A model generated the notes under the pieces. The model made no database searches and was not told the DNA's origin. It saw nothing but the letters and a program-made list of their open reading frames with translations. A program made the translations under genes and the position numbers. From positions 22,390 through 86,389 of the IMG/VR virus record IMGVR_UViG_3300031992_000063: a DNA stretch of 64,000 nucleotides; one strand, given 5' to 3'. Every line of letters begins with the position of its first letter. Positions within the stretch are counted from its first letter, which is position 1. The DNA comes from a virus. Its lineage: Duplodnaviria; Heunggongvirae; Uroviricota; Caudoviricetes. Of the stretch, positions 50,005 to 64,000 are shown one piece after another.

Positions 50005-50006
50005 AT

Positions 50007-50066: not shown

Positions 50067-50090
50067 AATTATAGAAAAAAGGAAAGGAGA

Positions 50091-50426
50091 ATGAAAATGG
50101 GTTTGGATATTTATATTTTCAAAGCTCGTACCAAGAAAGCATTTGAGGCCGATAATTGGTATAATTCCGATGCAGTACAAGAAGTATATTATGCTAGAAA
50201 ATTCTGGGACCTTCTAAGCGCAGCGTCATTCATTGATATAAATAATGATTGCGGCGAATATCTTGAACTTTCGCGCGAAAATGTTGAAGAACTGATTGAA
50301 ATTGCTACCCATAATGAAGATTATTTTGGTGGCTTTGAGACAGTACCTCGCTTATGCGAGATTCTGCGAGATTTTGAAGAAACCGAAGAAAACGGCTATC
50401 ATTATTATATGGAGTTTGATTACTAA
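50091..50426 (+). CDS. Hypothetical protein (111 aa)
   Basis: ORF track entry. RBS AAGGAGA. Confidence 0.5.
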   Translation: MKMGLDIYIFKARTKKAFEADNWYNSDAVQEVYYARKFWDLLSAASFIDINNDCGEYLELSRENVEELIEIATHNEDYFGGFETVPRLCEILRDFEETEENGYHYYMEFDY

Positions 50427-50905: not shown

Positions 50906-50977
50906 TTTTATATTACCTATTCTATAAGAGTAGGTAATTTACTATACCCAAGTTTATGCCAATGAGGCAGGTAGAAA

Positions 50978-51199
50978 ATGACAAGAGATATTATAAATGA
51001 ATTTGAGCTATTTATTTATCAGCAAGGATGGACGCAAACTGACGCGGCAGAGAAAATCGGGTGTTCACAAGAACATTTAAGTAGGATTTTTCGTAGATTA
51101 AGAAATCCATCAGCAAAATTACTAGATAGAATGGAAATATTACTAGAGGAGCAACGATATGGCGAATTACGCAAATCAAAAAAGGATGGATATTCTTAA
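50978..51199 (+). CDS. Helix-turn-helix transcriptional regulator (73 aa)
   Basis: ...WTQTDAAEKIGCSQEHLSRIFRR... (XRE-like). Confidence 0.55.
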   Translation: MTRDIINEFELFIYQQGWTQTDAAEKIGCSQEHLSRIFRRLRNPSAKLLDRMEILLEEQRYGELRKSKKDGYS

Positions 51200-51521
51200 T
51201 GCGGATTTGTTAGAGCATAAGAAAAATACAGAAACGGACGGGTATTATTATCCTATGGATTATAAATATATAGATGCCGCCGCGTCAGAATTGAATGGCA
51301 ATGCCTTTAAGATTTGGCTTTATTTACTCCGATGGCGAAATAAAGGATATGTATTTTTCTCTCCCGCAGCAATTGAACATGCTATGGGTATCAAAAAGTC
51401 TAGTGTCAGCGACTCTGTCGCAGAACTTAAAAGAAAAGGAGTTATAATAGAAGATGCTGAGAGCCCGAATAAATTATATTTTAATGCCGTGCCTGATACA
51501 TGGCGCCAAAAATATGATTAA
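51159..51521 (+). CDS. Replication initiator-like winged-helix protein (120 aa)
   Basis: Winged-helix-type segment. Placed immediately upstream of the iteron array. Confidence 0.4.
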   Translation: MANYANQKRMDILNADLLEHKKNTETDGYYYPMDYKYIDAAASELNGNAFKIWLYLLRWRNKGYVFFSPAAIEHAMGIKKSSVSDSVAELKRKGVIIEDAESPNKLYFNAVPDTWRQKYD

Positions 51522-51524
51522 CGA

Positions 51525-51665
51525 TTTTCGTACCATTCATTCCGAAAATCGTACCATTCACTTTTATTGATACGAAAATCGTACCATTCGCGTCCGAAAA
51601 CCGTACCAATCAGTACGAAAACCGTTCCATTCGTCCGAAAATCGTACCAATGGTCCGAAAAACCT
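51525..51665 (+). repeat. Iteron array: about 6 direct repeats of about 19-21 nt, (C/A)CGAAAA(T/C)CGTACCA(T/A)T(C/G)
   Basis: ccgaaaatcgtaccattca / acgaaaatcgtaccattcg / ccgaaaaccgtaccaatca / acgaaaaccgttccattcg / ccgaaaatcgtaccaatgg / ccgaaaaacc. Confidence 0.6.
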
Positions 51666-51740
51666 GGGAGTAATATTAATATATAATTAATATATAAATA
51701 ATAAAAATAATAATATTTAAATAATGATATGGCGCTGCGC
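51666..51740 (+). other. AT-rich DNA-unwinding element adjacent to the iterons; together a candidate origin of replication
   Basis: taatattaatatataattaatatataaataataaaaataataatatttaaataatgatat. Confidence 0.5.
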
Positions 51741-51891
51741 GCAGAGGAGAACAATATGTGCCAAATTATAACAACTGGTTTTTGCCCTTACGCAGATAAT
51801 GAAGAAGGAATAACATGCGATGATTGTCCGTGGTCTGAGCCTGATAAGGAAACCGAATTTTTTAAAAAATATTTTGAGGAGCTAGAAAAAT

Positions 51892-52185
51892 ATGCTAGAA
51901 AAAATTAAAGCATGGCTTATTCATAAATTAGGTGGATATACATATAAATATACAATTGAGCCAAAGGTAATACATTCAACTTATCCAATTAAATTGTGTA
52001 AAACAATAATTACATATAGAGATGATTATCCTTTAACAGAAATTGAACTGGCGCACCAAGCCGCCATACAGATTGCGGATGCTATTATACGGGACCGCCT
52101 CTACGAATATGAAGAAGAAACTGATATGCTCCGTGAAGGAATGCATGTACGCCACTATACAGTTTATATCGCAGCTAAACATTGA
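51892..52185 (+). CDS. Hypothetical protein (97 aa)
   Basis: ORF track entry. A 49-aa Cys-rich ORF, 51757..51906, precedes it. Confidence 0.45.
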   Translation: MLEKIKAWLIHKLGGYTYKYTIEPKVIHSTYPIKLCKTIITYRDDYPLTEIELAHQAAIQIADAIIRDRLYEYEEETDMLREGMHVRHYTVYIAAKH

Positions 52186-52210
52186 CTTTTAATTTAAATT
52201 GAAGTATAAT
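52183..52210 (+). promoter_or_regulatory. Consensus promoter (TTGACT-16-TATAAT)
   Basis: Promoter family member. Confidence 0.55.
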
Positions 52211-52240
52211 ATAAAAAAGAGGAAAGAGGATAAAGTAGAA

Positions 52241-52516
52241 ATGATTGATCGTGAGAAAGTTATTAAAGGGTTGGAGTCTTGTGCAAAATGGATGGGAGAA
52301 AATGATGATAATGCTTGTAATAGTTGCCCTTATCATCATAGTCACTTCAGTTATGATGACAATAATTGTATTGCCATAGTTAATAATGATGCTATTACCC
52401 TACTGAAAGAACAGAAAACCTCGCGAAGCAATATTTCCAAAAAGCAGATGGAAGGTTGGTTGAAAGATAGACAGTATAGCGAATGGGCTAATAGAGCACA
52501 TGAGATGGGTGTATGA
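52241..52516 (+). CDS. Cys/His-rich hypothetical protein (about 91 aa)
   Basis: ATG 52241 downstream of the promoter. The ORF track start at 52199 precedes the transcription start. Confidence 0.45.
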   Translation: MIDREKVIKGLESCAKWMGENDDNACNSCPYHHSHFSYDDNNCIAIVNNDAITLLKEQKTSRSNISKKQMEGWLKDRQYSEWANRAHEMGV

Positions 52517-52525
52517 GGAAGTGAA

Positions 52526-52834
52526 ATGGGAATGAGTGCAACAGAGAATGTTATCAATGATTTGAACACGGCAAAATTCATATTGGGCAATACGCAGATA
52601 ACACTTACTCGAGAACTACGCATCAGAATTGGGCAGGCTATAAATAGCGCCATTGATTTGCTGGAAGAGCAGAAACCTGTTGAGCCAATAGATATTATAG
52701 ATGAAAAATATCCTGTAGGAGATAGCAATAGATATAAAGGATATCGTTGCGGTAAATGCCAAGAAATTATTTCATGGGATGCTAATTACTGCCCCTATTG
52801 CGGGAGAAAGGTGAAGTGGGAATGCGCGAACTAA
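52526..52834 (+). CDS. Zinc-ribbon protein (102 aa)
   Basis: CGKCQ...CPYCGRK. Confidence 0.45.
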   Translation: MGMSATENVINDLNTAKFILGNTQITLTRELRIRIGQAINSAIDLLEEQKPVEPIDIIDEKYPVGDSNRYKGYRCGKCQEIISWDANYCPYCGRKVKWECAN

Positions 52835-53121
52835 TTTATCGAGATGACTGCGACCTCAATGCGCCATCACTGGATAGAGATGGTATGATACGCGACCTAA
52901 TGAATGAATATTCTTTAAATTGGGACGAATGCGATGAAGAAAAAGTCTTTGAGTTCGCAAAAGAACTTATGGAGAAAGCACAAAATATAATTGATACTGC
53001 ACCAACAATCGCTACTGATGAAGTTATGGCATATAAATGCCCTGAATGTAGAGTGGTAAGTATCTTATATAATCCAGAGTATGAATCATACTGCCCGAAT
53101 TGCGACATAAGGAGAAGATAA
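52798..53121 (+). CDS. Zinc-ribbon protein (107 aa)
   Basis: CPECR...CPNCD. Confidence 0.45.
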   Translation: MREKGEVGMRELIYRDDCDLNAPSLDRDGMIRDLMNEYSLNWDECDEEKVFEFAKELMEKAQNIIDTAPTIATDEVMAYKCPECRVVSILYNPEYESYCPNCDIRRR

Positions 53122-53459
53122 TGGAAATATTAGTTGATTATGGTCCTGTTACGGAAGCAGGAATATTAGGAATATTAATAATAGCTATAGCTACCTTTAC
53201 ATTTATGATTGGTCTTGCGGGAATGTTTTTTGAACACGAAAAAGTTGGAATTATTTGTTTATCAATATTTATAATACTTGTAGTAGTTGGTATTACTTTT
53301 AAAACGAATCTATATGAAATTCCTACAGGTAAATATAAATACATAGTAGAAATTACAGATGAAAATAAATACAAAGAATTAGTACAAAAAGATTATACAT
53401 TCGTACGCGTGTATGATAATAGAGAGATTTATACAATTGTAGGAGATGAACTTAAATGA
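53100..53459 (+). CDS. Two-TM membrane protein (119 aa)
   Basis: ORF track entry. Hydrophobic N-terminal half. Confidence 0.5.
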   Translation: MRHKEKIMEILVDYGPVTEAGILGILIIAIATFTFMIGLAGMFFEHEKVGIICLSIFIILVVVGITFKTNLYEIPTGKYKYIVEITDENKYKELVQKDYTFVRVYDNREIYTIVGDELK

Positions 53460-53746
53460 AAGTAATTGCTAGACCACTTGGAACTGGTAAAACACGAGAA
53501 CTAATGGAAGCCGCCATTGAAGCCGATGGTATGATTCTAACAACCAATAAGCGAGCTTTGGCCGCAAAAGCGCAGGCATACGGCTTTGACTCTTTAGACA
53601 TTATTGACCTAGCAGATGTACTTTATGGTAATTTTGACCCAGAAAAACCTCTATTTATTCATAAACTAGAAGATGTAGCAGAAGAATATATTTCAAAGGA
53701 CTTTAACCTAAAACTTGCTGGCTTTAGCATTAGAATGGGAGAATAA
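53456..53746 (+). CDS. Hypothetical protein (96 aa)
   Basis: ORF track entry. Confidence 0.5.
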   Translation: MKVIARPLGTGKTRELMEAAIEADGMILTTNKRALAAKAQAYGFDSLDIIDLADVLYGNFDPEKPLFIHKLEDVAEEYISKDFNLKLAGFSIRMGE

Positions 53747-53747
53747 T

Positions 53748-54116
53748 ATGTACGATTATAGAAGAGCAATAACTAACGATATTAAAGAATATATTAATGA
53801 TAATCAGATGTTCCAAGAACCAGATGAAACATATGATGACTACATTCAGCGGCTTGAAGAAGACCTCTGGGATGTAGATGAGATTACTGGTAATGGTCCG
53901 TTCTACTATGCTTCCGAAGAAGAATGCGAAGATTATGTAGGACATGGACTTAGATACCTTGTTGAAGTGCTAACAGATTGGGATTTAGAACTGGCAAAGA
54001 ATGAGAATTTTCATGGTGCGCCCGCGCGCTATCTAGACTGTTTAATTAGATGTTATCTTCTTTATGAATGTATTGAAAAGGCGGTGAATGAACTTGGATA
54101 CACCTTTGAAATATAA
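53748..54116 (+). CDS. Hypothetical acidic protein (about 122 aa)
   Basis: ATG with RBS GGGAGAATAAT. Internal start of ORF 53715. Confidence 0.45.
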   Translation: MYDYRRAITNDIKEYINDNQMFQEPDETYDDYIQRLEEDLWDVDEITGNGPFYYASEEECEDYVGHGLRYLVEVLTDWDLELAKNENFHGAPARYLDCLIRCYLLYECIEKAVNELGYTFEI

Positions 54117-54264
54117 TTTAGAACTTGAAAAAGACAAAAGATGTTGGCTTTATAAATATGGATGCCCATGTCGTACCGCAGTATGCTGGGGATTACCTGA
54201 CGACGGATGCCCAGTATATGAGTGGTTTAAGCAAGTCATTGAATATCAGAAGCAATTAAGTAAT

Positions 54265-54292
54265 TGACTTTTAATAAAATTATGATATAATA
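54265..54292 (+). promoter_or_regulatory. Consensus promoter (TTGACT-16-TGaTATAAT)
   Basis: Promoter family member. Confidence 0.55.
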
Positions 54293-54323
54293 TATGTATA
54301 AGAAAAAGGAAAGGAGTGAGTAA

Positions 54324-56189
54324 ATGTCCCAGTCATATGATATTAACTCTATTCAAAGTTTAGACTTCCGCGAAGGTGTCCGTACTAGAATTCAGATGTA
54401 TCTTGGAAGCGATGATAACGAAGGAACTTATCAGGCATTAAAAGAGATTATCAATAACAGTACTGATGAAGCGCTTGCGGGATATGGCAAAAAGATAATA
54501 ATTACTTTAGAGCCCGCCACTAACGGTATCAGCGTTAGAGATTATGGGCGCGGAGTTCCATTCGGTATTAGAGAAGATGGAGAGAACGTACTTGTCTCTA
54601 TCTTTACTAAATCACATACTGGCGGCAAGTTCTCACATGATGCTTATAAGAATGCTTCAGGATTAAATGGAATTGGCGGTTCGTGCGTTTGTCTTTCCTC
54701 TACACGATTTGAAGTTACTAGTATTCGTGATGGAGCAAAGGCAACAGCAACCTTCAATAAAGGGATTTTGGATAGTTATGAAGAAAGAAAAGTGAGTGGT
54801 CTAAAAAATGGCACTTATATTTTCTTCATTCCAGACCCTGAAGTATTCTCAAATGGTCCAATTGGTTATGATTTTAACCGAATCTGTCAGGATATTAAAG
54901 ATATTTCATATCTTTATCCAGGCATTGAATTTATAGTATCAAATGAAAATGATGAGAAAACTTATTGCGCGAAAAATGGTATTATTGATTTTGTCGCTGA
55001 GAATGTAAAAAAGCCGCTTCAAAAAAGTATTATTACAGGTTCGGCGACAGATGGTACCGACAGTTTGGAGATTGCTTTTCAATGGGGCACGAAGCATGAA
55101 ACCAGTTATGTTTTTGTCAACGGTCTTAGATGTCCCGAGGGTGGTAGTCCAATTACTGGTGCGAGAAGCGCAATCACCAAGACATTCAATACACTTGCGA
55201 ATGCCTCCTTTGATGGTGAATATATTCGTAAGAATCTATTTTATGTAATTAATTGTAAAGTAGAAAATCCATCTTTTGCGAATCAGACCAAGTCTAAAAT
55301 CAATAACGCCTCATTACGAACCTTAGCTTCAACCGCATTCTCCAACGCGCTTAAAGATATGGCAACTCAGCATTCAAATGAATTTAATGCGATTGTAGAA
55401 ATGCTTCGTAAAATTGAGAAGGCGGAAGCCGCCGCGACAAAAGCAAGAGATGCCATTCTTAATATGGAGAAAAAGGAAACCGAACAGCGTAAGCGTAAGG
55501 TTACTTCTTCAGATAAATATAAGGATTGTGAAAAGCACTGTCAAGATTCAATGCTAATTATTTGTGAAGGTAATTCCGCATTAGGTGGCCTGATGCCCGC
55601 GCGTGATGTTAAGACAGAAGCATTATATGCTGTGCGCGGTAAGGTTAAAAACTTGATGAAGCATCCGCTAGATGAATGCCTGGAAAATCAGGAAGTCTCT
55701 GATATCATTATGGCGCTTGGATGCGGCATTCAGGAAAGGTATAGTAGTAAGAAACTTAATTATGGAAAAGTCGCGATTGCGGTTGACGCAGACGTTGACG
55801 GCTATAATATTATGTGCCTTATTACAACTCTCTTCTATGTCCTAATGCCGAAATTCATTGAAGAAGGAAGACTTGGTTGGCTGCGGGCGCCCCTTTACAG
55901 ATTGAGTAAAGGAAAGCAGCATGTATATGCGTATGATGAGGATGAGCTTACAGAATTAAGAAAAACTCATGCTGGATGGGAGCAATCAAGATACAAAGGA
56001 TTGGGGGAGATGCGCGCTGAGGATATGGAGGAGTCTATGCTTCATCCGAAAAATAGGCGGCTGGATATTCTTACAATTGGCGATGCTGAAGCTGCGGCAG
56101 ATTGTTTACAAATGTTGATGGGCACGGAAGTTGAAGGGCGCCGAGACTTCTTATTTGAGAACGTGGATTTTAGTATTTTGAATAATTAA
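54324..56189 (+). CDS. Type II DNA topoisomerase, ATPase plus TOPRIM subunit (GyrB/ParE-like; T4 gp39/gp60-like), 621 aa
   Basis: GHKL ...INNSTDEALAGYGKKIIITLEP...VRDYGRGVP... and TOPRIM ...MLIICEGNSALGG... Confidence 0.75.
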   Translation: MSQSYDINSIQSLDFREGVRTRIQMYLGSDDNEGTYQALKEIINNSTDEALAGYGKKIIITLEPATNGISVRDYGRGVPFGIREDGENVLVSIFTKSHTGGKFSHDAYKNASGLNGIGGSCVCLSSTRFEVTSIRDGAKATATFNKGILDSYEERKVSGLKNGTYIFFIPDPEVFSNGPIGYDFNRICQDIKDISYLYPGIEFIVSNENDEKTYCAKNGIIDFVAENVKKPLQKSIITGSATDGTDSLEIAFQWGTKHETSYVFVNGLRCPEGGSPITGARSAITKTFNTLANASFDGEYIRKNLFYVINCKVENPSFANQTKSKINNASLRTLASTAFSNALKDMATQHSNEFNAIVEMLRKIEKAEAAATKARDAILNMEKKETEQRKRKVTSSDKYKDCEKHCQDSMLIICEGNSALGGLMPARDVKTEALYAVRGKVKNLMKHPLDECLENQEVSDIIMALGCGIQERYSSKKLNYGKVAIAVDADVDGYNIMCLITTLFYVLMPKFIEEGRLGWLRAPLYRLSKGKQHVYAYDEDELTELRKTHAGWEQSRYKGLGEMRAEDMEESMLHPKNRRLDILTIGDAEAAADCLQMLMGTEVEGRRDFLFENVDFSILNN

Positions 56190-56208
56190 ATTTTTATGGA
56201 GATAAAAT

Positions 56209-56724
56209 ATGAAAACTGGACTTTGCGGATTATATAGATTTAAAAATAAGCAAGGTGAAATTATTTATATTGGTAAGGCTGATGATATTCATAAACGATT
56301 AAAAGGGCATAAACATCTTGAACCAGAACAATATCAAGAGGTATCAACTATTGAATATGCTATAGTTAATAATAAAGCAGATAGAGATATTATAGAGACT
56401 ATGTTAATTTCACAAATTAATCCCAAATATAATACAACACAAAAGTATACAGAACAAGCAAGTTTAATAATAGATGGAGAGATAATGCTTTTATGGCAAA
56501 AAGTTGATCCCAAAGAATATAATTTTCAAGCAAAGAAAAAAGAACATAGAGGCACAGGAGTACAAGGTCGTCCACGTATAGAAGTACCACCATTATTTTA
56601 CGAGTTATATCCTAAATGGAAAAATGGTGAAATAACAGCCACTGCTATGGCAAAAGAAGTTGGTTTAACTCACTGTACATTTTATCGTCGTGTAAAAGAA
56701 TATGAAGCTACTTTAAATAAGTAA
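56209..56724 (+). CDS. GIY-YIG nuclease with C-terminal HTH (171 aa), AT-rich, no TAG
   Basis: GLYRFKNKQGEIIYIGKADDIHKRLKGH...ETMLISQINPKYNT. C-terminal ...ITATAMAKEVGLTHCTFYRRVKEY. Confidence 0.65.
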   Translation: MKTGLCGLYRFKNKQGEIIYIGKADDIHKRLKGHKHLEPEQYQEVSTIEYAIVNNKADRDIIETMLISQINPKYNTTQKYTEQASLIIDGEIMLLWQKVDPKEYNFQAKKKEHRGTGVQGRPRIEVPPLFYELYPKWKNGEITATAMAKEVGLTHCTFYRRVKEYEATLNK

Positions 56725-56758
56725 GAAGTTCCCTTATTTAAGAATATGAATTTTAGTA

Positions 56759-57928
56759 TTGAGAATAATTAAGATGGATAATAAATATTACGTTTACAAA
56801 TATTATATTAATGACCAATTATTATATGTAGGACGAACTAATAACTTTATAGAACGATTTAAACAGCATTTGCGGGAAAATTCAGAATATAATAAAGTAA
56901 CTAGAATTGATATAGCCACTTTTGATTTAGATGGCGATATGATGTTATATGAAAAATATTATATTACGAAATTTCATCCGCCTTTAAATAAGAAGGATAT
57001 GCAATTTTCTAGTCCATCTTTTAAATTACCTGAACCTGAATGGATAAGTTATACTAGAGAAGAATTTGATAATATTTCCTCTCAATATAAAAAAAATAAC
57101 TATGGAAAACTCGTAGAAAACAAAATTAAATTATCAAAAATTATTCTCCCAGATAATACAGTTAAAATTCCTGGTAATATCCCGTTATCTTGGTTTAAAC
57201 AGTTTGATATGAATACACAAGTATTTAATTATAATGAAAAATATAGTATTTATTTTACAAGTGCCTATGATACTGCTACACCAAAAGAACAGAAAAAGAT
57301 GTATAAATGGGATAAAAATGAGATAATTAATTACTGGTGTTTAATAGCAGAAAATAAATTAGATAAAATTCCTTATATTAAAGATTATCCATATGATGCT
57401 CCAACATTAAATTTAACAATTAAAAAAAATAATTCTGACATAATGTATTGTTCTTTAGATTGGTTCAGAATCACTTTGGATAAAAATCAAGGATTTTATT
57501 ATTTTGGGCCATATTTTAAAAATAAAATTATTAGTGAAGATGGTATATTTAATATTGAAAAAGAAATTCAAGAGTATGAAATAATAGAACTATTTCATAC
57601 ACCAACAGTATCAAAAGTTTTAAAAGATGCATTGGGTAATGATGAGATTGAAGTAAAAAAAATTCTTTCTTGGAATATATTATATGTATCGTATAAAAAC
57701 AATATAATAGATACTGCCATTATTAAAATAAATTTCTTATCTACTGAAGATGATGAAACAATATTTGAAAATAATTTATTAATTATTAATCAAGAAGAGA
57801 TTTCAGATTCCGATCATATGATAGCACAAAATTATGCTCCTTGTGGTGTTTTAAGAAAATATAAAAATACTTTTATTCGTGATAAATATTTTGAAAAACT
57901 ATTAATTGACAATTCTCTAAATTTATGA
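56759..57928 (+). CDS. GIY-YIG domain protein (389 aa), very AT-rich
   Basis: YVYKYYINDQLLYVGRTNNFIERFKQH...EKYYITKFHPPLNKKD. Confidence 0.6.
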   Translation: MRIIKMDNKYYVYKYYINDQLLYVGRTNNFIERFKQHLRENSEYNKVTRIDIATFDLDGDMMLYEKYYITKFHPPLNKKDMQFSSPSFKLPEPEWISYTREEFDNISSQYKKNNYGKLVENKIKLSKIILPDNTVKIPGNIPLSWFKQFDMNTQVFNYNEKYSIYFTSAYDTATPKEQKKMYKWDKNEIINYWCLIAENKLDKIPYIKDYPYDAPTLNLTIKKNNSDIMYCSLDWFRITLDKNQGFYYFGPYFKNKIISEDGIFNIEKEIQEYEIIELFHTPTVSKVLKDALGNDEIEVKKILSWNILYVSYKNNIIDTAIIKINFLSTEDDETIFENNLLIINQEEISDSDHMIAQNYAPCGVLRKYKNTFIRDKYFEKLLIDNSLNL

Positions 57929-57934
57929 TATAAT
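57906..57934 (+). promoter_or_regulatory. Consensus promoter (TTGACA-17-TGaTATAAT)
   Basis: Promoter family member. Followed by the ATAGAAAGTGAGAAAG leader. Confidence 0.55.
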
Positions 57935-57964
57935 AAATATAGAAAGTGAGAAAGAATAATATTT

Positions 57965-58180
57965 ATGGATAAAAAAATCATAAATTATAATGTACTAGTT
58001 CGTAATGGTATGGGATGTATGAATAGACATATTCTCGAACAAAATGCTGAATATACTATTGCATATTGTACTTTACATAATAAAGAAATTAGTCAACATG
58101 GTTATGATTGTATGTCGTGTGAATATAATCCGTATTATAAAAATAAAAATATACTTAAAGGAGGCGACAGAGATGACTGA
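57965..58180 (+). CDS. Cys-rich zinc-finger protein (71 aa)
   Basis: CMNRH...CTLH...CMSCEY. Confidence 0.45.
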   Translation: MDKKIINYNVLVRNGMGCMNRHILEQNAEYTIAYCTLHNKEISQHGYDCMSCEYNPYYKNKNILKGGDRDD

Positions 58181-59339
58181 CAAAGCACAGCAAGCGTTAG
58201 AGAGTATTAAGAAAAATTTTTCAAATGCCTCTTTTACATTAAAAGATTTAAATGAGAAAAGCCAAGAACAATATTTTAGTGCTTCTTTAACTTCTTTAGT
58301 AAAAGAACATTATTTACTAAAACTTAATACTAAACCAGTAAAATATCAATTATCGAATATAAATATTGATGTTAGTGATAAATTTCTAGAAAAAGAAAAA
58401 GAAAAAGAAAAAGAAAAAGAAAAAGAAAAAGAAAAAGAAAAGGAAAAAGAAAAAGAAAAACCTATAAATAAATATCCAATTAATATATAGCTATTACATG
58501 GAGATAGTAGAATAGAATTACAACAAATTGCAAACAATTCAATAGATTGTGTTATAACAGATCCTCCATATTTTATTGATGGTATGGGTGATAACTGGCA
58601 AGTAGATAAATTAAAAGAAAAAGCTAGTAAGGCAAATGTAGTACAGTCAATGCCAGTTGGAATGAAATTTGATCCGAAACAAGGTATTGAATTACAGAAA
58701 TTTATGGAAGTAATTTCAAAAGAAATATATCGTATTTTAAAACCTGGCGGATTCTATATTAGTTTTTCTCAAGCACGATTATATCATAGAATGGCAATGG
58801 CAGTAGAAAATTGCGGATTTGAAATAAGGGATATGCTTATTTGGAAACGAGAAGGACAAGCAAAAGCATTTTCACAAAATCATTTTGTACATAAAATGAA
58901 TATTTCAGAAGAAGAAAAAGAAAAAATAATAACTTCTCTAGGAGATAGAAAAACACCGCAATTAAAGCCTCAAATTGAACCAATGGTACTAGCTCAAAAG
59001 CCAAAAGAAGGTACATTTGTACAAAATTGGTTAAAATATAATATTGGATTAATAGATACTACTCAATCTCTTGATGGAATGTTTCCTGGGAATGTAATGG
59101 AAGTACCAAAAGAAAAAAATGCAGTTGCTCATTTTACAGTAAAACCAGTTAAATTAATAGAGCATTTAATTAAAATCTTTTCTCCAGAGGGCGCGATAAT
59201 TTGTGATCCATTTTTAGGAAGTGGAACTACTGGAATAGCTTGCATACATACTAATCGTAATTTTATTGGAATTGAATTAAATGATGAATATTTTTCATTA
59301 GCAAAAGAAAGGATCGAAAAAGAGAATGGAACTAATTGA
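58173..59339 (+). CDS. DNA methyltransferase (DPPY-type N6-A/N4-C) fused through a sense TAG to an N-terminal domain carrying an (EK)13 repeat; about 388 aa
   Basis: RBS GGAGG followed by ATG 58173 ...(EK)n...PINI(TAG)LLHGDSRIELQQIANNSIDCVITDPPYF... (MTase N-terminal signature and motif IV) ...ICDPFLGSGTTGIAC (motif I). ORF 58584..59339 is in the same frame. No independent start codon lies between the TAG and the DPPY motif. Confidence 0.6.
58389..58458 (+). repeat. Hexanucleotide tandem repeat (GAAAAA/AAAGAA)x12 encoding (EK)n
   Basis: gaaaaagaaaaagaaaaa... inside the methyltransferase fusion gene. Confidence 0.7.
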
Positions 59340-60039
59340 TAAATATATTCCATTAACAAAAGAAGAAATAATCAATGATTACATAAAAATTAAAGAATAT
59401 CATCAAAAATATCTTCAATCTTATGGAATTATTATGCCAGCTGAAAATACTAATGCGGCATATCAATTGATATATTTATATCATTTTTTAGGAAAAGCAA
59501 TTCATAAAGATGTTATATCTAATTTTGTATTATCACAAAATCCTAAAGCAAGCGGAGATCAGCAGGTTCGCCATCTTGGTGCACAAAAAGGTTATTGTGT
59601 GATTTATAATGGAGAAGTGTATAATGGAGAAAAGGTAAAAAAAGGATATTATTGTTTATTTACTTTAGAAAAACCAAATCCAGCTTGGATTAACAAGCAA
59701 GAAGCTAGAGCCATTTCAATTACTACAGATGACTTTGAATTACTAAAAAAGAATTACAATAATTGTTGTGCTACTTGTGGAGCAAAAGAAGGGTCTATTC
59801 ATAGATATAGTGGTCAAAAAGTTAAATTACAAAAAGGACATTGTAATCCAAATTTACCTTTAAAAAGTGGTAATATTATTCCACAATGTCAATATTGTAA
59901 TCAAAATATATATAAAGATGATTTTATTTTTACATTAGAAGGACGACCACAAAGTATTAATAATCCGAAATATATTTTGAAAAGCTCAGAAAAAGTACAA
60001 CTGGCAATGTATGAAATTTTAAAAGAAAAATTTCAATAA
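59326..60039 (+). CDS. Putative restriction endonuclease partner of the methyltransferase (237 aa), Cys4 zinc motif
   Basis: Overlaps the methyltransferase stop. CCATCGAK...HC...CQYCN. Confidence 0.4.
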   Translation: MELIDKYIPLTKEEIINDYIKIKEYHQKYLQSYGIIMPAENTNAAYQLIYLYHFLGKAIHKDVISNFVLSQNPKASGDQQVRHLGAQKGYCVIYNGEVYNGEKVKKGYYCLFTLEKPNPAWINKQEARAISITTDDFELLKKNYNNCCATCGAKEGSIHRYSGQKVKLQKGHCNPNLPLKSGNIIPQCQYCNQNIYKDDFIFTLEGRPQSINNPKYILKSSEKVQLAMYEILKEKFQ

Positions 60040-60068
60040 TTGACAATTCTTCAAATTCATGATATAAT
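60040..60068 (+). promoter_or_regulatory. Consensus promoter (TTGACA-17-TGaTATAAT)
   Basis: Promoter family member. Confidence 0.55.
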
Positions 60069-60094
60069 AAAGTATAAAGAAAAGGAGTGAGATA

Positions 60095-62164
60095 ATGATT
60101 AAAAATGTAGACTTTCAACGCACCATTGAGGATGCATTCTTAAAGTATGGCGCATCAATTGCGCAAGAGAGGTCTTTACCTGATGTAAGAGATATGCTGA
60201 AAATTGGTTTGCGGCAGGGTCTATACGCACAATTTACCAACAAACTCACTCATAAAGATAAGTTCCAGAAGGCGCAGAAGAGCGTCGCTGCGGCAATGTC
60301 GCAATCATATGTTCACGGCGATGTAGCAATGTACGACGCTCTTATTCGCGCCGCTCGTCCTTGGTCAAGCCGCTACCCATTGGAAGATGTCCAAGGCAGC
60401 TACGGCAATCCCTCATCTCCAGATAGTCATGCTGCCGCCCGTTATGTTGAAATGAAGTCTGGCGAAATCGCTGATTATATGTTTAACGGGCTAAAGAAAA
60501 ATGCTATCACCGAATGGTATGACAACTATGATAGTACAGAACAAATTCCATCTGTATTTCCTTCTATTGGATATTGGAATATTGTTAATGGATGTCAGGG
60601 CATTGCGGTTGCTATGGCAACTTCCGTTCCTCAGTTTAACCTCAAAGAAGTGAATGATGCGTTAATTAAAATTATTAAAAATCCAGACGTATCATTTAAT
60701 GAAATTTATTGTGCCCCAGACTTCGCAACTGGCGGCCTTATCACTAATGCGGATGAAGTTAAGGAAAGCTTAAAGAATGGAAAAGGAAAATCTATTCGTT
60801 TGCGCGCAAAGATGACATATCTCCCAAAGGAACATGCGCTTCAAGCAACTGAGCTTCCATATGGTGTATTTACGAATACAGTAATGGACCAACTTGCTTC
60901 ACTAGTAAATGATAATCCAGAATATGGCATTGATAAAGTTATTGATTATACCAAGCAGGAAGCAGATATTCGTATCTATCTTTCTAAGGGACAAAATCCT
61001 GATAAAATGATTGCGAAACTTTATCATGATACCATGCTAGAAAATCATTATTCTATCAATATGATTTTGCTAGATAAAGGTCGTTTTCCAAAGGTATTTG
61101 GATGGCGCGATGCATGTGATGCTTATATTACACATATCCGTAATTGTAAGCGTAACATGATCCAGTTTGACTTGGATAAAGCACTCGCGCGCGAAAATAT
61201 CGTCAATGGATTGCTTTTAGCAGTGGCAAATATTGATGATATTGTTGCTATTATTCGTGCTTCCGAAAGTCCGAAAGAAGCCGCGGAAGCGCTTATAGCT
61301 AAATATAAGTTTAACAAGCCACAAGTTGAAGCTATTCTCGCTATGAAGCTATCGGCCCTAACAAGAATTGACGGCGTAAAATTAAATGAAGAACTGGAAG
61401 AACTTGTTAAATTTATTGCGGAATGTAGATACATATTAAATGAACCTGCCGCGTTAGATGAAAAATTGATTGAGGCATTGAATAATGTTTCGCAGAAATT
61501 TGGTGATGCTCGTAGAACAAGAGTAGAGAATATTCTTGGAGACGAAGAAGAACCAGAAGAAATTAAAGAAGAAGATGTTATTGTTCTTCAGAATGGTAAT
61601 AATATCAAGATAATTAAAAAAGGTGAAAAGTGCGGAAAGGCACAAGATGCTTTTTATAGTACAAACCTAGGGTCTTTGATATTAATTACTGACGCTGGGA
61701 AAATGTATAGTGAAACAATTCATAAAATTAAATATAATCAAGTAGTAAAACTTACAGATATATTCCCAATTGGCGCCGAAAAGCCTCTTCTTCTAATTGA
61801 TAGTCGTACATTTAATGCCTTCCAATCTATAACTTGTGTAACGAAAAATGGGTTTATTAAAAAGAGTCATACCTCTGAGTATCTTACTCGCGCAAAGAAG
61901 GGCATCGGAGTTATTAAACTAGATGATGACGCGCTAGTATCTGTTATCCTTAGTAGCGATGATGATGATAAAGTAGTTGTTGTAAGTAATACCGATTATT
62001 ATAATTGCTATTCATTGTCAGAAATTGGATACACTGGGCGTATGACAAAAGGCGTAAAAGCAATTAAACTAGATAAAGATGGTTATGTAAAACAGGCTTT
62101 CTGGACTGGTGATAATAAATATAAAATTACTGGAAGAGCAGTAAAAGGAGTAAAAAATGGATAA
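60095..62164 (+). CDS. Type II DNA topoisomerase, DNA breakage-reunion subunit (GyrA/ParC-like; T4 gp52-like), 689 aa
   Basis: ...YVHGDVAMYDALIRAARPWSSRYPL... matches the GyrA HPHGDxAxYxxxVRMAQ region. Confidence 0.75.
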   Translation: MIKNVDFQRTIEDAFLKYGASIAQERSLPDVRDMLKIGLRQGLYAQFTNKLTHKDKFQKAQKSVAAAMSQSYVHGDVAMYDALIRAARPWSSRYPLEDVQGSYGNPSSPDSHAAARYVEMKSGEIADYMFNGLKKNAITEWYDNYDSTEQIPSVFPSIGYWNIVNGCQGIAVAMATSVPQFNLKEVNDALIKIIKNPDVSFNEIYCAPDFATGGLITNADEVKESLKNGKGKSIRLRAKMTYLPKEHALQATELPYGVFTNTVMDQLASLVNDNPEYGIDKVIDYTKQEADIRIYLSKGQNPDKMIAKLYHDTMLENHYSINMILLDKGRFPKVFGWRDACDAYITHIRNCKRNMIQFDLDKALARENIVNGLLLAVANIDDIVAIIRASESPKEAAEALIAKYKFNKPQVEAILAMKLSALTRIDGVKLNEELEELVKFIAECRYILNEPAALDEKLIEALNNVSQKFGDARRTRVENILGDEEEPEEIKEEDVIVLQNGNNIKIIKKGEKCGKAQDAFYSTNLGSLILITDAGKMYSETIHKIKYNQVVKLTDIFPIGAEKPLLLIDSRTFNAFQSITCVTKNGFIKKSHTSEYLTRAKKGIGVIKLDDDALVSVILSSDDDDKVVVVSNTDYYNCYSLSEIGYTGRMTKGVKAIKLDKDGYVKQAFWTGDNKYKITGRAVKGVKNG

Positions 62165-62534
62165 AAGATACGTGGAACTGTTTAAGGAGCTCGCCAAGGC
62201 CACTGCCGTATCGGCAGAACAGGTAATGGATTATGATAGAGCTAAGAACGATGAAGAAGGGCTGAAAACCGCACAGACAATGCGCGATGATTATAACGCT
62301 CTTCACGATAAAATTAATGATGGTTCAGAACTTGATAAAGCTGATTTTGCTAAGCTACTAGTTGGCGCAATGATTATTGTAAATCAGATTCAGGACCGTC
62401 TTGCTACTTTACAGAAGGCAATGTCTGGTTATCAGACTGACCTTGTCCCCAAGCTTAATAAAATTATTGAAGCTGAAACTGAGGATGAGGTAAAGAAAAT
62501 CGCAATTGAAGAGTTTAGTATTAAGGAAGATTAA
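62157..62534 (+). CDS. Hypothetical coiled-coil protein (125 aa)
   Basis: ORF track entry. Confidence 0.5.
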   Translation: MDKRYVELFKELAKATAVSAEQVMDYDRAKNDEEGLKTAQTMRDDYNALHDKINDGSELDKADFAKLLVGAMIIVNQIQDRLATLQKAMSGYQTDLVPKLNKIIEAETEDEVKKIAIEEFSIKED

Positions 62535-62537
62535 TAC

Positions 62538-62566
62538 TTGACTTTTTAAGAAATTTATTATATAAT
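62538..62566 (+). promoter_or_regulatory. Consensus promoter (TTGACT-17-TATAAT)
   Basis: Promoter family member. Confidence 0.55.
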
Positions 62567-62614
62567 AATTACAGAACAAAGGGGAAACCCGAGAAAAAAA
62601 AAGGAGAAGAAAAA

Positions 62615-62980
62615 ATGACAGTAAATTCAGAAAAGGTACTCAATTACATGAAGGAACATTATGGCGAAGAACTCACAAAGAAGGGCATTGCGGAAGCACT
62701 AGATGTGCCATTTGCGTCTGTAACAGGCTCAATGAATGCTCTTATTAAGAATGGTTATGCGGTAACAACTCGTAAGGAAACTGTTGAGGATGCTCCCGCA
62801 ACGGAAACTCGCAAGGCTAAGACCCACGATGTACTATATCATATGCTTACAGAAGCAGGTCTAGCTTATGACCCAGTGGCTGAGGAAGCTCGTAAGGTAG
62901 CTGAGAAGGAAGCCGCAAAGGCAGCTCGTGCCGCAGAACGTGCCGCTAAGAAGGCTGCTAAGGAAGCCGCCGCAGAATAA
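62615..62980 (+). CDS. Histone-like DNA-binding protein with Ala/Lys-rich C-terminal tail (121 aa)
   Basis: ...AEKEAAKAARAAERAAKKAAKEAAAE. Confidence 0.45.
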   Translation: MTVNSEKVLNYMKEHYGEELTKKGIAEALDVPFASVTGSMNALIKNGYAVTTRKETVEDAPATETRKAKTHDVLYHMLTEAGLAYDPVAEEARKVAEKEAAKAARAAERAAKKAAKEAAAE

Positions 62981-63021
62981 TTTTAAATTAAAATAAAGAA
63001 AAGAAAAAGGAGTAAAGTAAA

Positions 63022-63918
63022 ATGAAAAGTATTGGTATTCAGTCAAAGAATCAGATGAATCTAGTTGGTAAGCTTCTAAATGTTGATTTTGGAGAGGGCA
63101 AGCTCTCTGATGGTCGTGAATATAAGCGCGCGACCGTAACAATTCGTGTAACTCAGCCAGTTGATGGTAAGGAAGAGACAAGCGAAATTCCGGTAGGTTT
63201 CTTCGCTACACCTTATACTTCTACTGGTAAGCAGAATCCGGCTTACAAGTCTCTTCTAGACCTACAGAATCTGAAGACGGCACAGAATGTTGGTATTGAT
63301 GCCGCAGACCAGGTTCGTATTACAAGTGGCGTTCTAAGTGAAAATAACTTTGTATCTCGTAGCGGTAATCTTATTACCGGTTGGCAGATTCGCGGTTCTT
63401 TCATTAATGCCGCAAAGATGGCAGATATTGCCTCATTTGTAACTGAAATTTTCATCATTGATATGCATGATGAAGAGGATAGAAATGGTGAACCTACTGG
63501 TCGTCTCGTAGTTCGCGGCGGCGTGGTTCAGTATAATAGCAAGCTAGATGTTATTGACTTTATTGTTGAAGCACCTGACAAGGTTGAATTTATTTCTCGT
63601 AATTGGGAAAATGGTACAACTGTTACAGTTAAGGGTCGTGTTCGTGTAACTTCTCATGAGACTGAAAGTTCTAGTGAGAGCAGTAGCTGGGGCGAAGATA
63701 TTCCCGATACCACGACTACTTTCGTTCGTGAGCTAATTATCACTGGTGGCGACGATGGTCCTAAGGATGAGGAATTTAGTTATGACCCTGCGGAAATCAA
63801 GAAGGCATTCAATCAGCGTAAGGCTGCGATTGAGCAGATGCAGATTGATGCTCGTGCTCGTACGAGCAAGCAGGGTGGTAGTAACCAGACTAGCGCAAAG
63901 AAGTATGATTGGGAGTAA
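63022..63918 (+). CDS. Single-stranded DNA-binding protein-like (OB folds, acidic C-terminus), 298 aa
   Basis: Acidic tail ...DDGPKDEEFSYDP. Placed next to replication genes. Confidence 0.45.
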   Translation: MKSIGIQSKNQMNLVGKLLNVDFGEGKLSDGREYKRATVTIRVTQPVDGKEETSEIPVGFFATPYTSTGKQNPAYKSLLDLQNLKTAQNVGIDAADQVRITSGVLSENNFVSRSGNLITGWQIRGSFINAAKMADIASFVTEIFIIDMHDEEDRNGEPTGRLVVRGGVVQYNSKLDVIDFIVEAPDKVEFISRNWENGTTVTVKGRVRVTSHETESSSESSSWGEDIPDTTTTFVRELIITGGDDGPKDEEFSYDPAEIKKAFNQRKAAIEQMQIDARARTSKQGGSNQTSAKKYDWE

Positions 63919-63959
63919 GGCGTAAGCCTTACCCCACTCTTTTAAGAGGTGAGATTAAA

Positions 63960-64000
63960 TGGCAGAAATTGATATCTTCTCTTTGGAACCTTCTAAGATT
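63960..64000 (+). CDS. 5' end of the next gene (MAEIDIFSLEPSKI...), truncated by the window
   Basis: ATG 63960 after a hairpin. Confidence 0.3.

What the first reader, a model, noticed from the sequence alone, without database searches (positions are those of the whole stretch)
56209..60040. AT-rich mobile/defence island inserted between the two topoisomerase II subunit genes
Between topoisomerase II gene 54324..56189 (ATPase/TOPRIM) and gene 60095..62164 (breakage-reunion subunit) lies a markedly more AT-rich 3.8-kb segment. It encodes two GIY-YIG nucleases, a Cys-rich protein, and a methyltransferase plus putative restriction endonuclease pair, and it carries two family promoters. T4-like topoisomerase II loci are a classic landing site for homing endonucleases such as mobA and segG. 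Here the cargo appears to include a restriction-modification module, which would be an endonuclease-mobilised defence or addiction cassette inside an essential operon.
Basis: partly seen in the sequence, partly recalled or inferred. Interest (0 to 1): 0.7.

Follow-up and report, generated by a model that had tools for sequence, protein, structure and literature searches.

The report
Swappable nuclease and restriction-modification island
The gap between a rumen-type phage's two topoisomerase genes is a hotspot holding two homing-endonuclease genes and a working-looking restriction-modification pair; all are known kinds of element, but the methylase gene can only be read with the phage's altered genetic code (TAG = glutamine).

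Summary
Segment 56190..60094 has 26% GC against 38% for the rest and is the lowest-GC 3.8-kb stretch in the window. It lies between a GyrB-like and a GyrA-like topoisomerase II gene.

It contains two GIY-YIG genes, a conserved 4-Cys ORF, a beta-class DNA methyltransferase and an overlapping HNH nuclease gene. Two near-identical consensus promoters are also present.

In 51 related phage contigs the same gap ranges from 0 to 3.6 kb and carries different cargo. That cargo includes GIY-YIG or HNH homing endonucleases and at least four other methylase modules. A relative with 94-98% identical flanks carries a different restriction-modification pair, with breakpoints at the topoB stop codon and at the promoters.

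Homologues of the nuclease sit next to methylases of two classes in phages, bacterial chromosomes, a mobile element and a plasmid. This is the signature of a type II restriction enzyme.

Two corrections. The phage reads TAG as glutamine, so the methylase gene is 58173..59339 with one in-frame TAG ahead of its catalytic motif. The restriction-modification pair moves independently of the GIY-YIG genes, so mobilisation by the endonucleases is not shown.

These are known kinds of element in a new combination. Interest is moderate.

The parts
54324..56189 (+). Topoisomerase II ATPase/TOPRIM subunit (GyrB-like); left border of the hotspot. A near-consensus promoter lies at 54264..54291.
   Evidence: Pfam DNA_gyraseB 1.3e-29, GyrB_C, Toprim; PHROG 543 at 1e-134; promoter.
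56209..56724 (+). GIY-1: free-standing GIY-YIG endonuclease gene (171 aa) with a weak C-terminal HTH match. It has no promoter of its own and lies 20 nt after the topoB stop.
   Evidence: Pfam GIY-YIG 27.5 bits against a 22.6 cut-off; HTH_50 E 0.0098, below cut-off. It clusters with 16 GIY-YIG ORFs from the same gap in relatives. dN/dS 0.23 against L046.
56733..56772 (+). Decayed duplicate of the last 40 nt of topoB (85% identical to 56150..56189). It separates GIY-1 from GIY-2 and is a footprint of nested insertion.
   Evidence: In L051 the real topoB end is joined directly to the GIY-2 start (window 56733-57091 matches L051 11827-12187 at 90%).
56774..57928 (+). GIY-2: second free-standing GIY-YIG endonuclease gene (384 aa from the ATG). 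The C-terminal ~300 aa have no family match.
   Evidence: Pfam GIY-YIG 27.2 bits. Homologues sit in the same gap in L013/L014 (64%) and L051 (92%). dN/dS 0.31.
57903..57937 (+). Promoter P1 (TTGACA-N17-TGATATAAT at 57906..57934); left copy of the 35-nt direct repeat. It is the breakpoint of the cassette swap against L002.
57965..58180 (+). Conserved small 4-Cys ORF (71 aa; C18, C35, C49, C52 invariant), function unknown. Its stop overlaps the methylase ATG by 8 nt.
   Evidence: Seven homologues at 73-88% identity. In L097-L100 the homologue lies directly upstream of topoA, overlapping its start in L097/L098. No Pfam, PHROG, NCBIfam or PADLOC hit.
58173..59339 (+). DNA methyltransferase M (388 codons). 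It consists of an N-terminal ~70-aa domain of unknown fold, a (AGAAAA)12 Glu-Lys linker (58388..58460), an in-frame TAG (58488..58490, read as Gln), and a beta-class N6/N4 MTase domain. The DPPY motif is at 58560..58571 and FxGxG at 59211..59231.
   Evidence: Pfam N6_N4_Mtase 6e-36; frame and motifs; repeat. Orthologues L076 (372 aa) and L077 (370 aa) have the same N-terminal extension; L076 has CAA at the window's TAG, and a TAG where the window has CAA. The TAG is present in two independent assemblies. dN/dS 0.12.
59326..60039 (+). Putative type II restriction endonuclease R (237 aa). It has a winged-helix DNA-binding domain (DQQVRHL at 59557..59577) and a C-terminal zinc-type HNH motif (CxxC...H172...N183...CxxCN, 59764..59901). 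It overlaps M by 14 nt and contains no TAG.
60037..60071 (+). Promoter P2 (60040..60068) for topoA; right copy of the 35-nt repeat. It is conserved upstream of topoA in 27 of 51 relatives and is the only content of the 'empty' site in L019.
60095..62164 (+). Topoisomerase II breakage-reunion subunit (GyrA-like); right border of the hotspot.
   Evidence: Pfam DNA_topoisoIV 7.2e-94.
15606..15695 (+). Amber-suppressor tRNA (anticodon CUA). It lies outside the island but is needed to read the methylase gene.
   Evidence: ARAGORN; Rfam tRNA 51.7 bits.

Best explanation
The site between the topoB stop codon and the topoA promoter is a hypervariable insertion hotspot in a clade of roughly 170-190-kb, TAG-recoded phages, probably from the rumen. 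In this window four independent modules are stacked there.

1. GIY-1 is a promoterless free-standing GIY-YIG homing-endonuclease gene. It is bracketed by the topoB end and a decayed 40-nt copy of that end.
2. GIY-2 is a second such gene. In a relative it abuts topoB directly.
3. A consensus promoter is followed by a conserved small 4-Cys gene. In other relatives this gene sits directly upstream of topoA.
4. A type II restriction-modification pair, M then R, has overlapping reading frames and is followed by a second copy of the promoter.

Inferred mechanism:
- The GIY-YIG enzymes cut endonuclease-free alleles of co-infecting relatives near the topoB/topoA junction. Recombinational repair then copies the endonuclease gene and neighbouring DNA, giving the mosaic flanks.
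- The R-M pair is exchanged as a cassette by recombination in the repeated promoters or the conserved topoisomerase flanks.
- M methylates phage DNA, probably as m6A because it has a DPPY motif. R (winged helix plus HNH) cuts unmethylated DNA of the host or of competing phages.
- M can only be made full-length when the phage's amber suppressor reads TAG-106 as Gln.

Shown here: gene content, folds and motifs, TAG = Gln, hotspot polymorphism, breakpoints, M-R linkage across genomes, and purifying selection. Inferred: all enzymatic activities, target sequences, homing, and the biological role.
For: Hotspot:
- The gap is 0-3582 bp in 51 relatives and always AT-rich. L019 is the empty site, 65 bp holding only the promoter.
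- The cargo families are GIY-YIG (17 ORFs), HNH homing endonuclease (9 ORFs; phrog_374 at 3.6e-51), and methylases of several types with partner ORFs. One partner is a PADLOC REase_II hit at 7.8e-9 in L002.

Recent swap:
- L002 flanks are 94% and 98% identical in DNA, but the cargo is unrelated.
- Breakpoints fall exactly at the topoB stop, at promoter P1 plus the first two codons, and at the -35 of P2.

Nested insertion: the 40-nt topoB-end duplicate, and the L051 arrangement.

Mosaic flanks: topoB and topoA identities are uncoupled, for example L042 at 59%/93% and L019 at 89%/78%.

R-M identity:
- M-R overlap of 14 nt.
- HNH motif invariant in 30 homologues.
- Confident model with winged helix plus beta-beta-alpha.
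- Homologues lie next to N6_N4 or C5 methylases in all three gene orders, in phages, alphaproteobacterial chromosomes, an ICE-like element, a defence island and a Thermus plasmid.
- M and R are co-transferred: L069 has M 82% and R 79% identical while its topoisomerases are 32-35%.
- dN/dS is 0.12 for both. dS of M-R is 0.4-0.7 against 1.8 for the adjacent topoA.

TAG = Gln:
- ORF coverage on the + strand rises from 39.1 to 55.6 kb when TAG is read as sense.
- A tRNA-CUA is present.
- 1534 TAG sites align to Gln with 7.2-fold enrichment.
- The window and L076 show a reciprocal TAG/CAA exchange in M.
- The TAG is present in two other assemblies.
Against: - No activity, target sequence or methylation data exist.
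- Pfam, NCBIfam, PADLOC and PDB sequence searches give nothing for R. The structural matches to HNH nucleases are weak (Foldseek E 0.1-0.7).
- Eight of 24 contexts of the R family have no adjacent methylase. These are mostly 29-38% identical marine and giant-virus contigs. The family is therefore not exclusively restriction enzymes.
- The same M-R pair in the same gap in L077, with similar divergence to topoB (73-77%), is compatible with some vertical descent.
- No intrinsic terminators or stem-loops accompany the promoters.
- Homing by GIY-1 and GIY-2 is inferred only from distribution and footprints.
Confidence: 0.7

Rival explanations
1. One reading: one composite element in which the GIY-YIG endonuclease mobilises the restriction-modification pair as its cargo, so they home together as a unit.
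For: Endonuclease plus methylase modules co-occur in the same gap in six lineages: the window, L002, L043/55, L010, L033/34 and L014. Co-conversion of DNA next to a homing-endonuclease cut site is established for T4 (PMC2988022). Any cargo between the conserved flanks would therefore hitch-hike.
Against: The same M-R pair occurs in this gap with no endonuclease gene (L076, L077). It also occurs elsewhere in an unrelated phage (L069), and other methylase modules occur alone (L056, L057). GIY-1 and GIY-2 homologues occur with quite different cargo. The breakpoint against L002 separates the endonuclease part from the R-M part at promoter P1.
Confidence: 0.12
2. This is not a restriction-modification system. 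M is an orphan anti-restriction methylase of the kind common in phages, and ORF 59326..60039 is a third (HNH) homing endonuclease or another DNA-processing enzyme.
For: Orphan methylases are far more common in phages than full R-M systems (general knowledge). Eight contexts of the R family lack an adjacent methylase, including T4-like contigs next to regA. The gap is full of homing endonucleases.
Against: Sixteen contexts have a methylase immediately adjacent or overlapping. They show three gene orders and two methylase classes, and they include bacterial chromosomes, an ICE-like element, a defence island and a plasmid, where homing endonucleases are not expected. M and R co-transfer with matched divergence.
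Confidence: 0.13
3. This is ancient, vertically inherited accessory content of the topoisomerase operon. The low GC reflects relaxed selection and not mobility.
For: L077 has topoB-M-R-topoA with M and R 73-74% identical and topoB 77% identical. Island genes use TAG as Gln like the rest of the phage gene pool. They are therefore long-term residents of recoded phages.
Against: The closest relative (flanks 94-98% identical) has different cargo with sharp breakpoints. Gap content differs in nearly every lineage. M-R is 86-88% identical to L076 while topoA is 63%, with dS 0.4-0.7 against 1.8. M-R is about 80% identical in a phage whose topoisomerases are 32-35% identical.
Confidence: 0.03
4. This is a decaying system: the in-frame TAG is a nonsense mutation, M is a pseudogene, and the ATG-58584 product lacks the catalytic motif.
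For: Under the standard code the gene is split. A JGI gene call on an identical contig also splits it into 50-aa and 251-aa products.
Against: TAG is a sense codon throughout this phage. L076 has CAA (Gln) at that codon and its own TAG at a window CAA codon. dN/dS is 0.12 over the whole gene and 0.18 over the N-terminal part. An intact R without M would be self-destructive.
Confidence: 0.02

Closest known systems
Free-standing homing endonucleases of T4-like phages (Seg = GIY-YIG, Mob = HNH), especially mobA at the topoisomerase II genes 39/60 (Edgell et al. 2010, PMC2988022)
   Same: These are promoterless endonuclease ORFs between conserved essential DNA-metabolism genes. They show presence/absence polymorphism among relatives, mosaic flanks consistent with co-conversion, and a topoisomerase II locus as the landing site.
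   Different: Here the insertion lies between the two subunit genes and does not split one. The enzymes are GIY-YIG, not HNH as in mobA. Two are stacked, with a target-end duplication. No cleavage or homing data exist.
Type II restriction-modification operons with HNH (beta-beta-alpha-Me) endonucleases and beta-class N6/N4 methyltransferases (PF01555). Examples recalled from memory: KpnI, Hpy99I, PacI.
   Same: Overlapping M and R genes. M carries DPPY and FxGxG motifs in beta-class order. R has a zinc-type CxxC...H...N...CxxC(N) HNH core. M-R linkage is conserved across unrelated genomes.
   Different: R has no detectable sequence match to any Pfam, NCBIfam, PADLOC or PDB entry and carries an N-terminal winged helix. 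M carries an extra N-terminal domain, a hexanucleotide-repeat linker and an in-frame TAG. The pair is phage-borne. Specificity is unknown.
PeSL-type promoter cassettes that mediate modular shuffling in T4-type phages (Arbiol et al. 2010, PMC2839356; PMC4122927)
   Same: The variable cassette is bracketed by direct repeats of a conserved phage promoter. Replacement between near-identical genomes has breakpoints at those promoters.
   Different: No stem-loop terminator partner was found. The phage lineage is different. Recombination at the repeats is inferred from one pairwise comparison.
Stop-codon-recoded (code 15, TAG = Gln) gut phages with suppressor tRNAs (bioRxiv 10.1101/2021.08.26.457843; PMC9523058)
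   Same: A tRNA-CUA is present. Only a subset of genes (23 of 67 here) carries in-frame TAG. TAG aligns to Gln. The core replication genes are TAG-free.
   Different: The recoded codon sits in the methylase of a restriction-modification pair whose nuclease gene is TAG-free. A term search of that preprint for 'methyltransferase', 'restriction' and 'homing' found no occurrence of the first two.

Membership tests
GIY-YIG homing endonuclease (Seg-like, free-standing) | GIY-YIG catalytic domain with the conserved Tyr, Tyr, Arg, Glu and Asn residues | tested here: met
   Pfam PF01541 at 27.5 and 27.2 bits against a 22.6 cut-off. Motifs read from the sequence: GIY-1 has GLY...IIYIG...R30...E63...N; GIY-2 has YVY...LLYVG...R28...E62...N73. 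Assignment by analogy with I-TevI is from memory.
GIY-YIG homing endonuclease (Seg-like, free-standing) | Separate C-terminal DNA-binding domain | tested here: inconclusive
   GIY-1 matches HTH_50 at E 0.0098 and HTH_28 at 0.062, both below cut-off. The 300-aa C-terminal region of GIY-2 has no match.
GIY-YIG homing endonuclease (Seg-like, free-standing) | Intergenic position with presence/absence polymorphism between close relatives | tested here: met
   The empty site is seen in L019.
GIY-YIG homing endonuclease (Seg-like, free-standing) | Site-specific cleavage of the endonuclease-free allele and super-Mendelian inheritance | not testable with these tools
   This needs enzyme assays or co-infections. 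Only footprints are available: the 40-nt target-end duplicate and the mosaic flanks.
Type II restriction-modification system | DNA methyltransferase with an AdoMet-binding motif (FxGxG) and a catalytic motif (D/S/N)PP(Y/F) | tested here: met
   DPPY at codons 130-133 and FLGSGTT at 347-353. This holds only if TAG-106 is read through. Pfam PF01555 at 6e-36.
Type II restriction-modification system | Adjacent gene encoding a nuclease fold | tested here: met
   Invariant CxxC, H172, N183 and CxxCN192. The AF2 model has pLDDT 94.5 and a beta-beta-alpha at 168-195. Top Foldseek hits are Cas9-HNH, Cap5 and McrA, but weak at E 0.1-0.5.
Type II restriction-modification system | Nuclease-methylase linkage conserved across unrelated genomes | tested here: met
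   16 of 24 contexts have an adjacent methylase, with two methylase classes and three gene orders. Eight are solitary.
Type II restriction-modification system | Shared recognition sequence, with cleavage blocked by the cognate methylation | not testable with these tools
   No enzyme or methylome data are available.
HNH / beta-beta-alpha-Me nuclease superfamily | Match to curated HNH sequence profiles | tested here: not met
   No Pfam, NCBIfam or PADLOC HNH model hits R. Only weak PHROG hits were found: endonuclease VII at 2e-4 and HNH at 7e-3. Membership rests on motif and fold.
Code-15 (TAG = Gln) recoded phage | Suppressor tRNA-CUA, ORF extension when TAG is read as sense, and TAG aligned to Gln in homologues | tested here: met
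PeSL-type mobile regulatory cassette | Repeated early promoter at cassette borders and at indel breakpoints | tested here: met
PeSL-type mobile regulatory cassette | Stem-loop terminator coupled to the promoter | tested here: not met
   The terminator scan found no site next to P1 or P2: 3 sites in the region against 3.9 expected, none at the borders.

The most novel reading that the evidence does not exclude
The genetic code gates the restriction-modification pair. In the three TAG-recoded phages that carry this pair, the methylase gene always contains in-frame TAG at non-homologous positions (window 1, L076 1, L072-74 7). The nuclease gene never does: 0 TAG among 43 Gln-type codons. In L073, genes are bimodal, either TAG-rich or TAG-free, and M and R fall in opposite classes.

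If this is selected, the protective methylase is made only after the phage switches the cell to TAG = Gln, while the nuclease needs no switch. Two consequences could follow. First, timing would be nuclease-before-methylase, so the unmethylated host chromosome is destroyed before it can be protected. Second, the cassette would be locked to recoded genomes, because any standard-code recipient would express the nuclease without the methylase.
Probability: 0.12. Interest if true: 0.75.

Novelty: new member of a known kind. Interest (0 to 1): 0.45.

Why it matters
- It documents, with sharp breakpoints and an empty site, a recombination hotspot inside an essential phage operon. Homing endonucleases and several alternative restriction-modification cassettes are exchanged there among co-circulating phages. 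This is useful for understanding phage-phage competition in the rumen and gut.
- It flags an uncharacterised winged-helix plus HNH family as probable type II restriction enzymes that current profile libraries miss.
- It shows how standard-code gene calling mis-annotates such loci: the methylase appears truncated and catalytically dead.
- If TAG dependence of the methylase is functional, stop-codon recoding would act as a timing or containment switch for a toxin/antidote pair.

Tried and rejected
- Megablast of 53000..63500 against cultured or deposited phages gave no match. tblastn of R against the same collection gave no match.
- A profile search of the R family against PDB sequences gave only noise at E >= 0.6.
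- NCBIfam and PADLOC gave nothing for R, the Cys-rich ORF or GIY-2.
- A word-based homology search with the N-terminal domain of M found no candidates.
- A single-sequence AF2 model of that domain had pLDDT 49.7 and was unusable, so its fold remains unknown. My impression that it is a winged helix is untested.
- I first mis-set the M start by one base (58174), which gave a garbage alignment. This was corrected to 58173.
- I considered that the Cys-rich ORF is the controller protein of the R-M operon. I rejected this because its homologues sit directly upstream of topoA without any R-M pair.
- I considered that the TAG produces a functional short N-terminal protein plus a read-through fusion. 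This is not supported, because in L076 the TAG is at codon 31.
- I considered TAG = Ser, Leu or Tyr because the suppressor tRNA is 90 nt with a long extra arm. I rejected this because 1534 aligned TAG sites show no enrichment for these residues. The tRNA's odd shape remains unexplained.
- My first promoter-family pattern had the wrong spacer length and was redone.

Full report
**1. Observation**

The segment between the GyrB-like gene (54324..56189) and the GyrA-like gene (60095..62164) is real and compositionally distinct.
- Its GC is 26.3% against 37.9% for the rest of the window. It is the lowest of all 3.8-kb windows, about 3 sd below the mean.
- Third-position GC is 0.11-0.15 in the island genes against 0.29-0.34 in the topoisomerase genes.
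- Pfam confirms both topoisomerase subunits, two GIY-YIG domains just above the curated cut-off, and an N6_N4 DNA methyltransferase. PHROGs agrees.
- The only two perfect sigma-70 consensus promoters with an extended -10 in 54-62.6 kb are at 57906 and 60040. They lie inside a 35-nt, 91% identical direct repeat.
- These two promoters belong to a promoter family with 11 copies in the window against 0.17 expected.

**2. A correction that changes the gene model**

The methylase ORF that starts at the first ATG (58584) matches the Pfam profile only from position 27 and lacks the catalytic DPPY motif. Reading the frame upstream gives ...PINKYPINI-TAG-LLHGDSRIELQQIANNSIDCVITDPPY.... This is in frame with an ORF that starts at 58173 behind a strong AAAGGAGG ribosome-binding site.

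The window as a whole reads TAG as a sense codon.
- Coverage by ORFs of at least 100 aa on the + strand rises from 39.1 to 55.6 kb when TAG is sense. ORFs with 9-19 in-frame TAGs appear.
- A tRNA with anticodon CUA lies at 15606..15695.
- 23 of 67 ORFs carry TAG.
- Across this phage clade, 1534 in-frame TAG sites align to TAG (35%) or Gln (23%, 7.2-fold enriched). Ser, Leu and Tyr are not enriched.

The orthologous methylase in L076 is decisive. It has CAA (Gln) where the window has TAG, and it has its own TAG where the window has CAA. The TAG is present in two further independent assemblies that are 100% identical over 1.6-2.7 kb. dN/dS is 0.12 for the whole gene and 0.18 for the N-terminal part.

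The methylase gene is therefore 58173..59339 (388 codons). Its parts, in order, are:
- a ~70-aa N-terminal domain of unknown fold, shared with L076 and L077 but absent from other orthologues;
- a Glu-Lys linker made by an (AGAAAA)12 repeat that only the window lineage has;
- Gln-106 encoded by TAG;
- a beta-class catalytic domain.

**3. The nuclease**

ORF 59326..60039 overlaps the methylase stop by 14 nt. It has 52 homologues and none has a Pfam domain. The alignment shows an invariant DQQxRH helix and an invariant CxxC...E...H172...N183...PQCxxCN192 block.

An AlphaFold model built on this alignment is confident (pLDDT 94.5). It shows a helical and winged-helix N-terminal half and a beta-beta-alpha unit at 168-195.
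- Foldseek's best matches are all HNH nucleases (Cas9, CBASS Cap5, McrA), but at weak E-values of 0.1-0.5.
- Sequence profiles against PDB, NCBIfam and PADLOC find nothing.

Gene neighbourhood supplies the functional argument. Family members lie immediately next to, or overlap, a DNA methyltransferase in the following contexts:
- other phages, in both M-then-R and R-then-M order;
- alphaproteobacterial chromosomes;
- an ICE-like element, with a C5 methylase;
- a defence island, with a C5 methylase;
- a convergent pair next to HipBA;
- a Thermus plasmid whose neighbour is annotated as a site-specific DNA methyltransferase.

This makes 16 of 24 contexts. The eight solitary cases are one 56%-identical phage copy (L078/L079) and seven 29-38% identical marine-phage or giant-virus contigs. 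M and R also travel together. In L069 they are 82% and 79% identical to the window pair while the topoisomerase genes are 32-35% identical. I therefore read the pair as a type II restriction-modification module. The nuclease family is not yet in the profile libraries.

**4. The hotspot**

A search with the GyrB-like protein returned 61 related viral contigs. In the 51 that hold both subunit genes, the gap ranges from overlapping genes to 3582 bp. The gap is always more AT-rich than the flanks. The window's 3905 bp is the largest.
- L019 (topoB 89%, topoA 78% identical) is the empty site. Its 65 bp contain only the topoA promoter.
- Cargo clusters into GIY-YIG genes (17 ORFs), HNH homing endonucleases (9 ORFs; phrog_374 at 3.6e-51), and several methylase modules with partner ORFs.
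- The methylase modules are N6_N4 with a PADLOC REase_II partner in L002/L056, N6_N4 with an HNH-like ORF in L043, an Eco57I-type in L010, and an NPPF-type in L033/34/57.

The closest relative, L002, has flanks 94% (topoB) and 98% (topoA) identical in DNA. This is more similar than the 81-88% seen further upstream. Its cargo is nevertheless unrelated. Homology stops exactly at the topoB stop codon. It resumes for the ~65-nt promoter, leader and ATG-GAT of P1, stops again, and resumes at the -35 of P2. The restriction-modification cassette is therefore bracketed by promoter repeats and has been swapped there.

GIY-1 is bracketed by the topoB end and a decayed 40-nt copy of that end. In L051 the genuine topoB end runs straight into GIY-2, so GIY-1 arrived upstream of a pre-existing GIY-2. 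L042 carries a similar 46-nt duplicate. Identities of topoB and topoA are uncoupled among relatives, for example 59%/93% in L042. This is expected if breaks at the junction are repaired from co-infecting genomes.

GIY-1 and GIY-2 have no promoter and ride the topoB transcript. Many T4 seg and mob genes are arranged the same way (PMC2988022).

**5. What is cargo of what**

The M-R pair sits in this same gap without any homing endonuclease in two phages:
- L076: topoB end, promoter, M, R, topoA;
- L077: topoB, M, R, topoA.

In L069 it lies downstream of topoA. Against L076 the pair is 86-88% identical with dS 0.4-0.7, while the adjacent topoA is 63% identical with dS 1.8.

The Cys-rich ORF has seven homologues with four invariant Cys. 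In L097-L100 its homologue sits directly upstream of topoA, overlapping its start in L097/L098, with no R-M pair present. It is therefore a resident small gene, not part of the R-M module.

The island is thus a stack of independent modules, not one composite element. Hitch-hiking of the R-M pair on endonuclease-induced gene conversion is plausible but not shown.

**6. Mechanism**

Inferred steps:
- The GIY-YIG enzymes cut endonuclease-free junctions in co-infecting relatives.
- M methylates phage DNA. The DPPY motif suggests m6A.
- R cuts unmethylated DNA of the host or of competing phages.

Virus-encoded R-M systems used in this way are known from chloroviruses (from memory).

An open point concerns TAG usage. 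M needs amber suppression, while R has no TAG. The same asymmetry holds in L076 (M 1, R 0) and strongly in L072-74 (M 7 TAG among 12 Gln-type codons, R 0 of 12). In L073, genes fall into TAG-rich and TAG-free classes.

In the window this is a single codon, and other accessory genes also carry TAG. I therefore treat code-gating of the antidote as a low-probability but interesting reading. In the window's M-then-R order, premature termination in M could also lower R through loss of translational coupling.

**7. Comparison and novelty**

Each component is a known kind:
- Seg-like free-standing homing endonucleases, with T4 mobA at genes 39/60 as the topoisomerase precedent.
- A type II R-M operon with an HNH nuclease.
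- Promoter-bounded cassette shuffling as described for T4-type phages (PMC2839356), although no stem-loop partner is present.
- Code-15 recoding (bioRxiv 10.1101/2021.08.26.457843; PMC9523058).

What is new is the membership and the combination. The nuclease family is unannotated. One intergenic site cycles through at least five methylase-containing modules. The methylase's reading frame depends on the phage's altered code.

This is a new member of known kinds, of moderate interest.

Noticed in passing
window 1..64000; tRNA at 15606..15695: The whole window is from a TAG = Gln recoded phage. 23 of 67 ORFs of at least 90 aa carry in-frame TAG. Long Ser/Thr/Asn/Gly-rich ORFs at 1..12845 carry 2-19 each. 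The amber-suppressor tRNA is 90 nt with a long extra arm, which is odd for a Gln tRNA.
   Followed up: partly
window 15162..15224: There is an Rfam cow-rumen-4 RNA motif (63.8 bits against a 48.5 cut-off). It lies directly after a family promoter (15129..15157) and upstream of the suppressor tRNA. This hints at a rumen origin and possibly at regulation of the tRNA region.
   Followed up: no
window 19865..20028 and 22098..22134: Rfam calls a tRNA spanning 164 nt that ARAGORN did not report, which suggests a tRNA with a ~90-nt insertion or intron. An abiF RNA motif scores just at threshold (37.9 against 37).
   Followed up: no
window 44393..46572: A third GIY-YIG ORF (45757..46572, 5 in-frame TAG) follows a PhoH/PIN-like gene (44393..45631, 4 TAG). 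Homing-endonuclease genes elsewhere in this phage therefore do use the recoded codon.
   Followed up: no
L097/L098 978..3995: In these relatives the GyrB-like gene is split into 491-aa and 132-aa pieces by a LAGLIDADG endonuclease gene. This is a 'gene in pieces' like T4 39/60. Nine small ORFs then precede the Cys-rich ORF and topoA.
   Followed up: no
L054 12766..16126; L026 3280..6749: The topoA match spans 3.36-3.47 kb in these loci, not the usual 2.07 kb. This implies an insertion (intein, intron or endonuclease gene) inside topoA.
   Followed up: no
L073 1..14726: TAG usage is bimodal. Genes are either TAG-rich with no CAG at all (4 TAG of 6 Gln-type codons, 6 of 7, 7 of 12, 8 of 14) or completely TAG-free. 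The methylase is in the first class and the adjacent nuclease in the second.
   Followed up: partly
window 58388..58460: An (AGAAAA)12.2 hexanucleotide repeat encodes a Glu-Lys linker inside the methylase gene. It is absent from the orthologues in L076 and L077 and has the same length in the one independent assembly that spans it (L083). It preserves the reading frame, so it is not a frameshift phase-variation switch.
   Followed up: partly
L042 12125..12171: A 46-nt duplicate of the topoB 3' end (91% identical to window 56139..56184) lies inside the gap of another relative. This is a second independent target-end duplication at this hotspot. L042's topoB is also mosaic: its 3' 780 nt are 88% identical to the window while the whole protein is only 59% identical.
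   Followed up: partly
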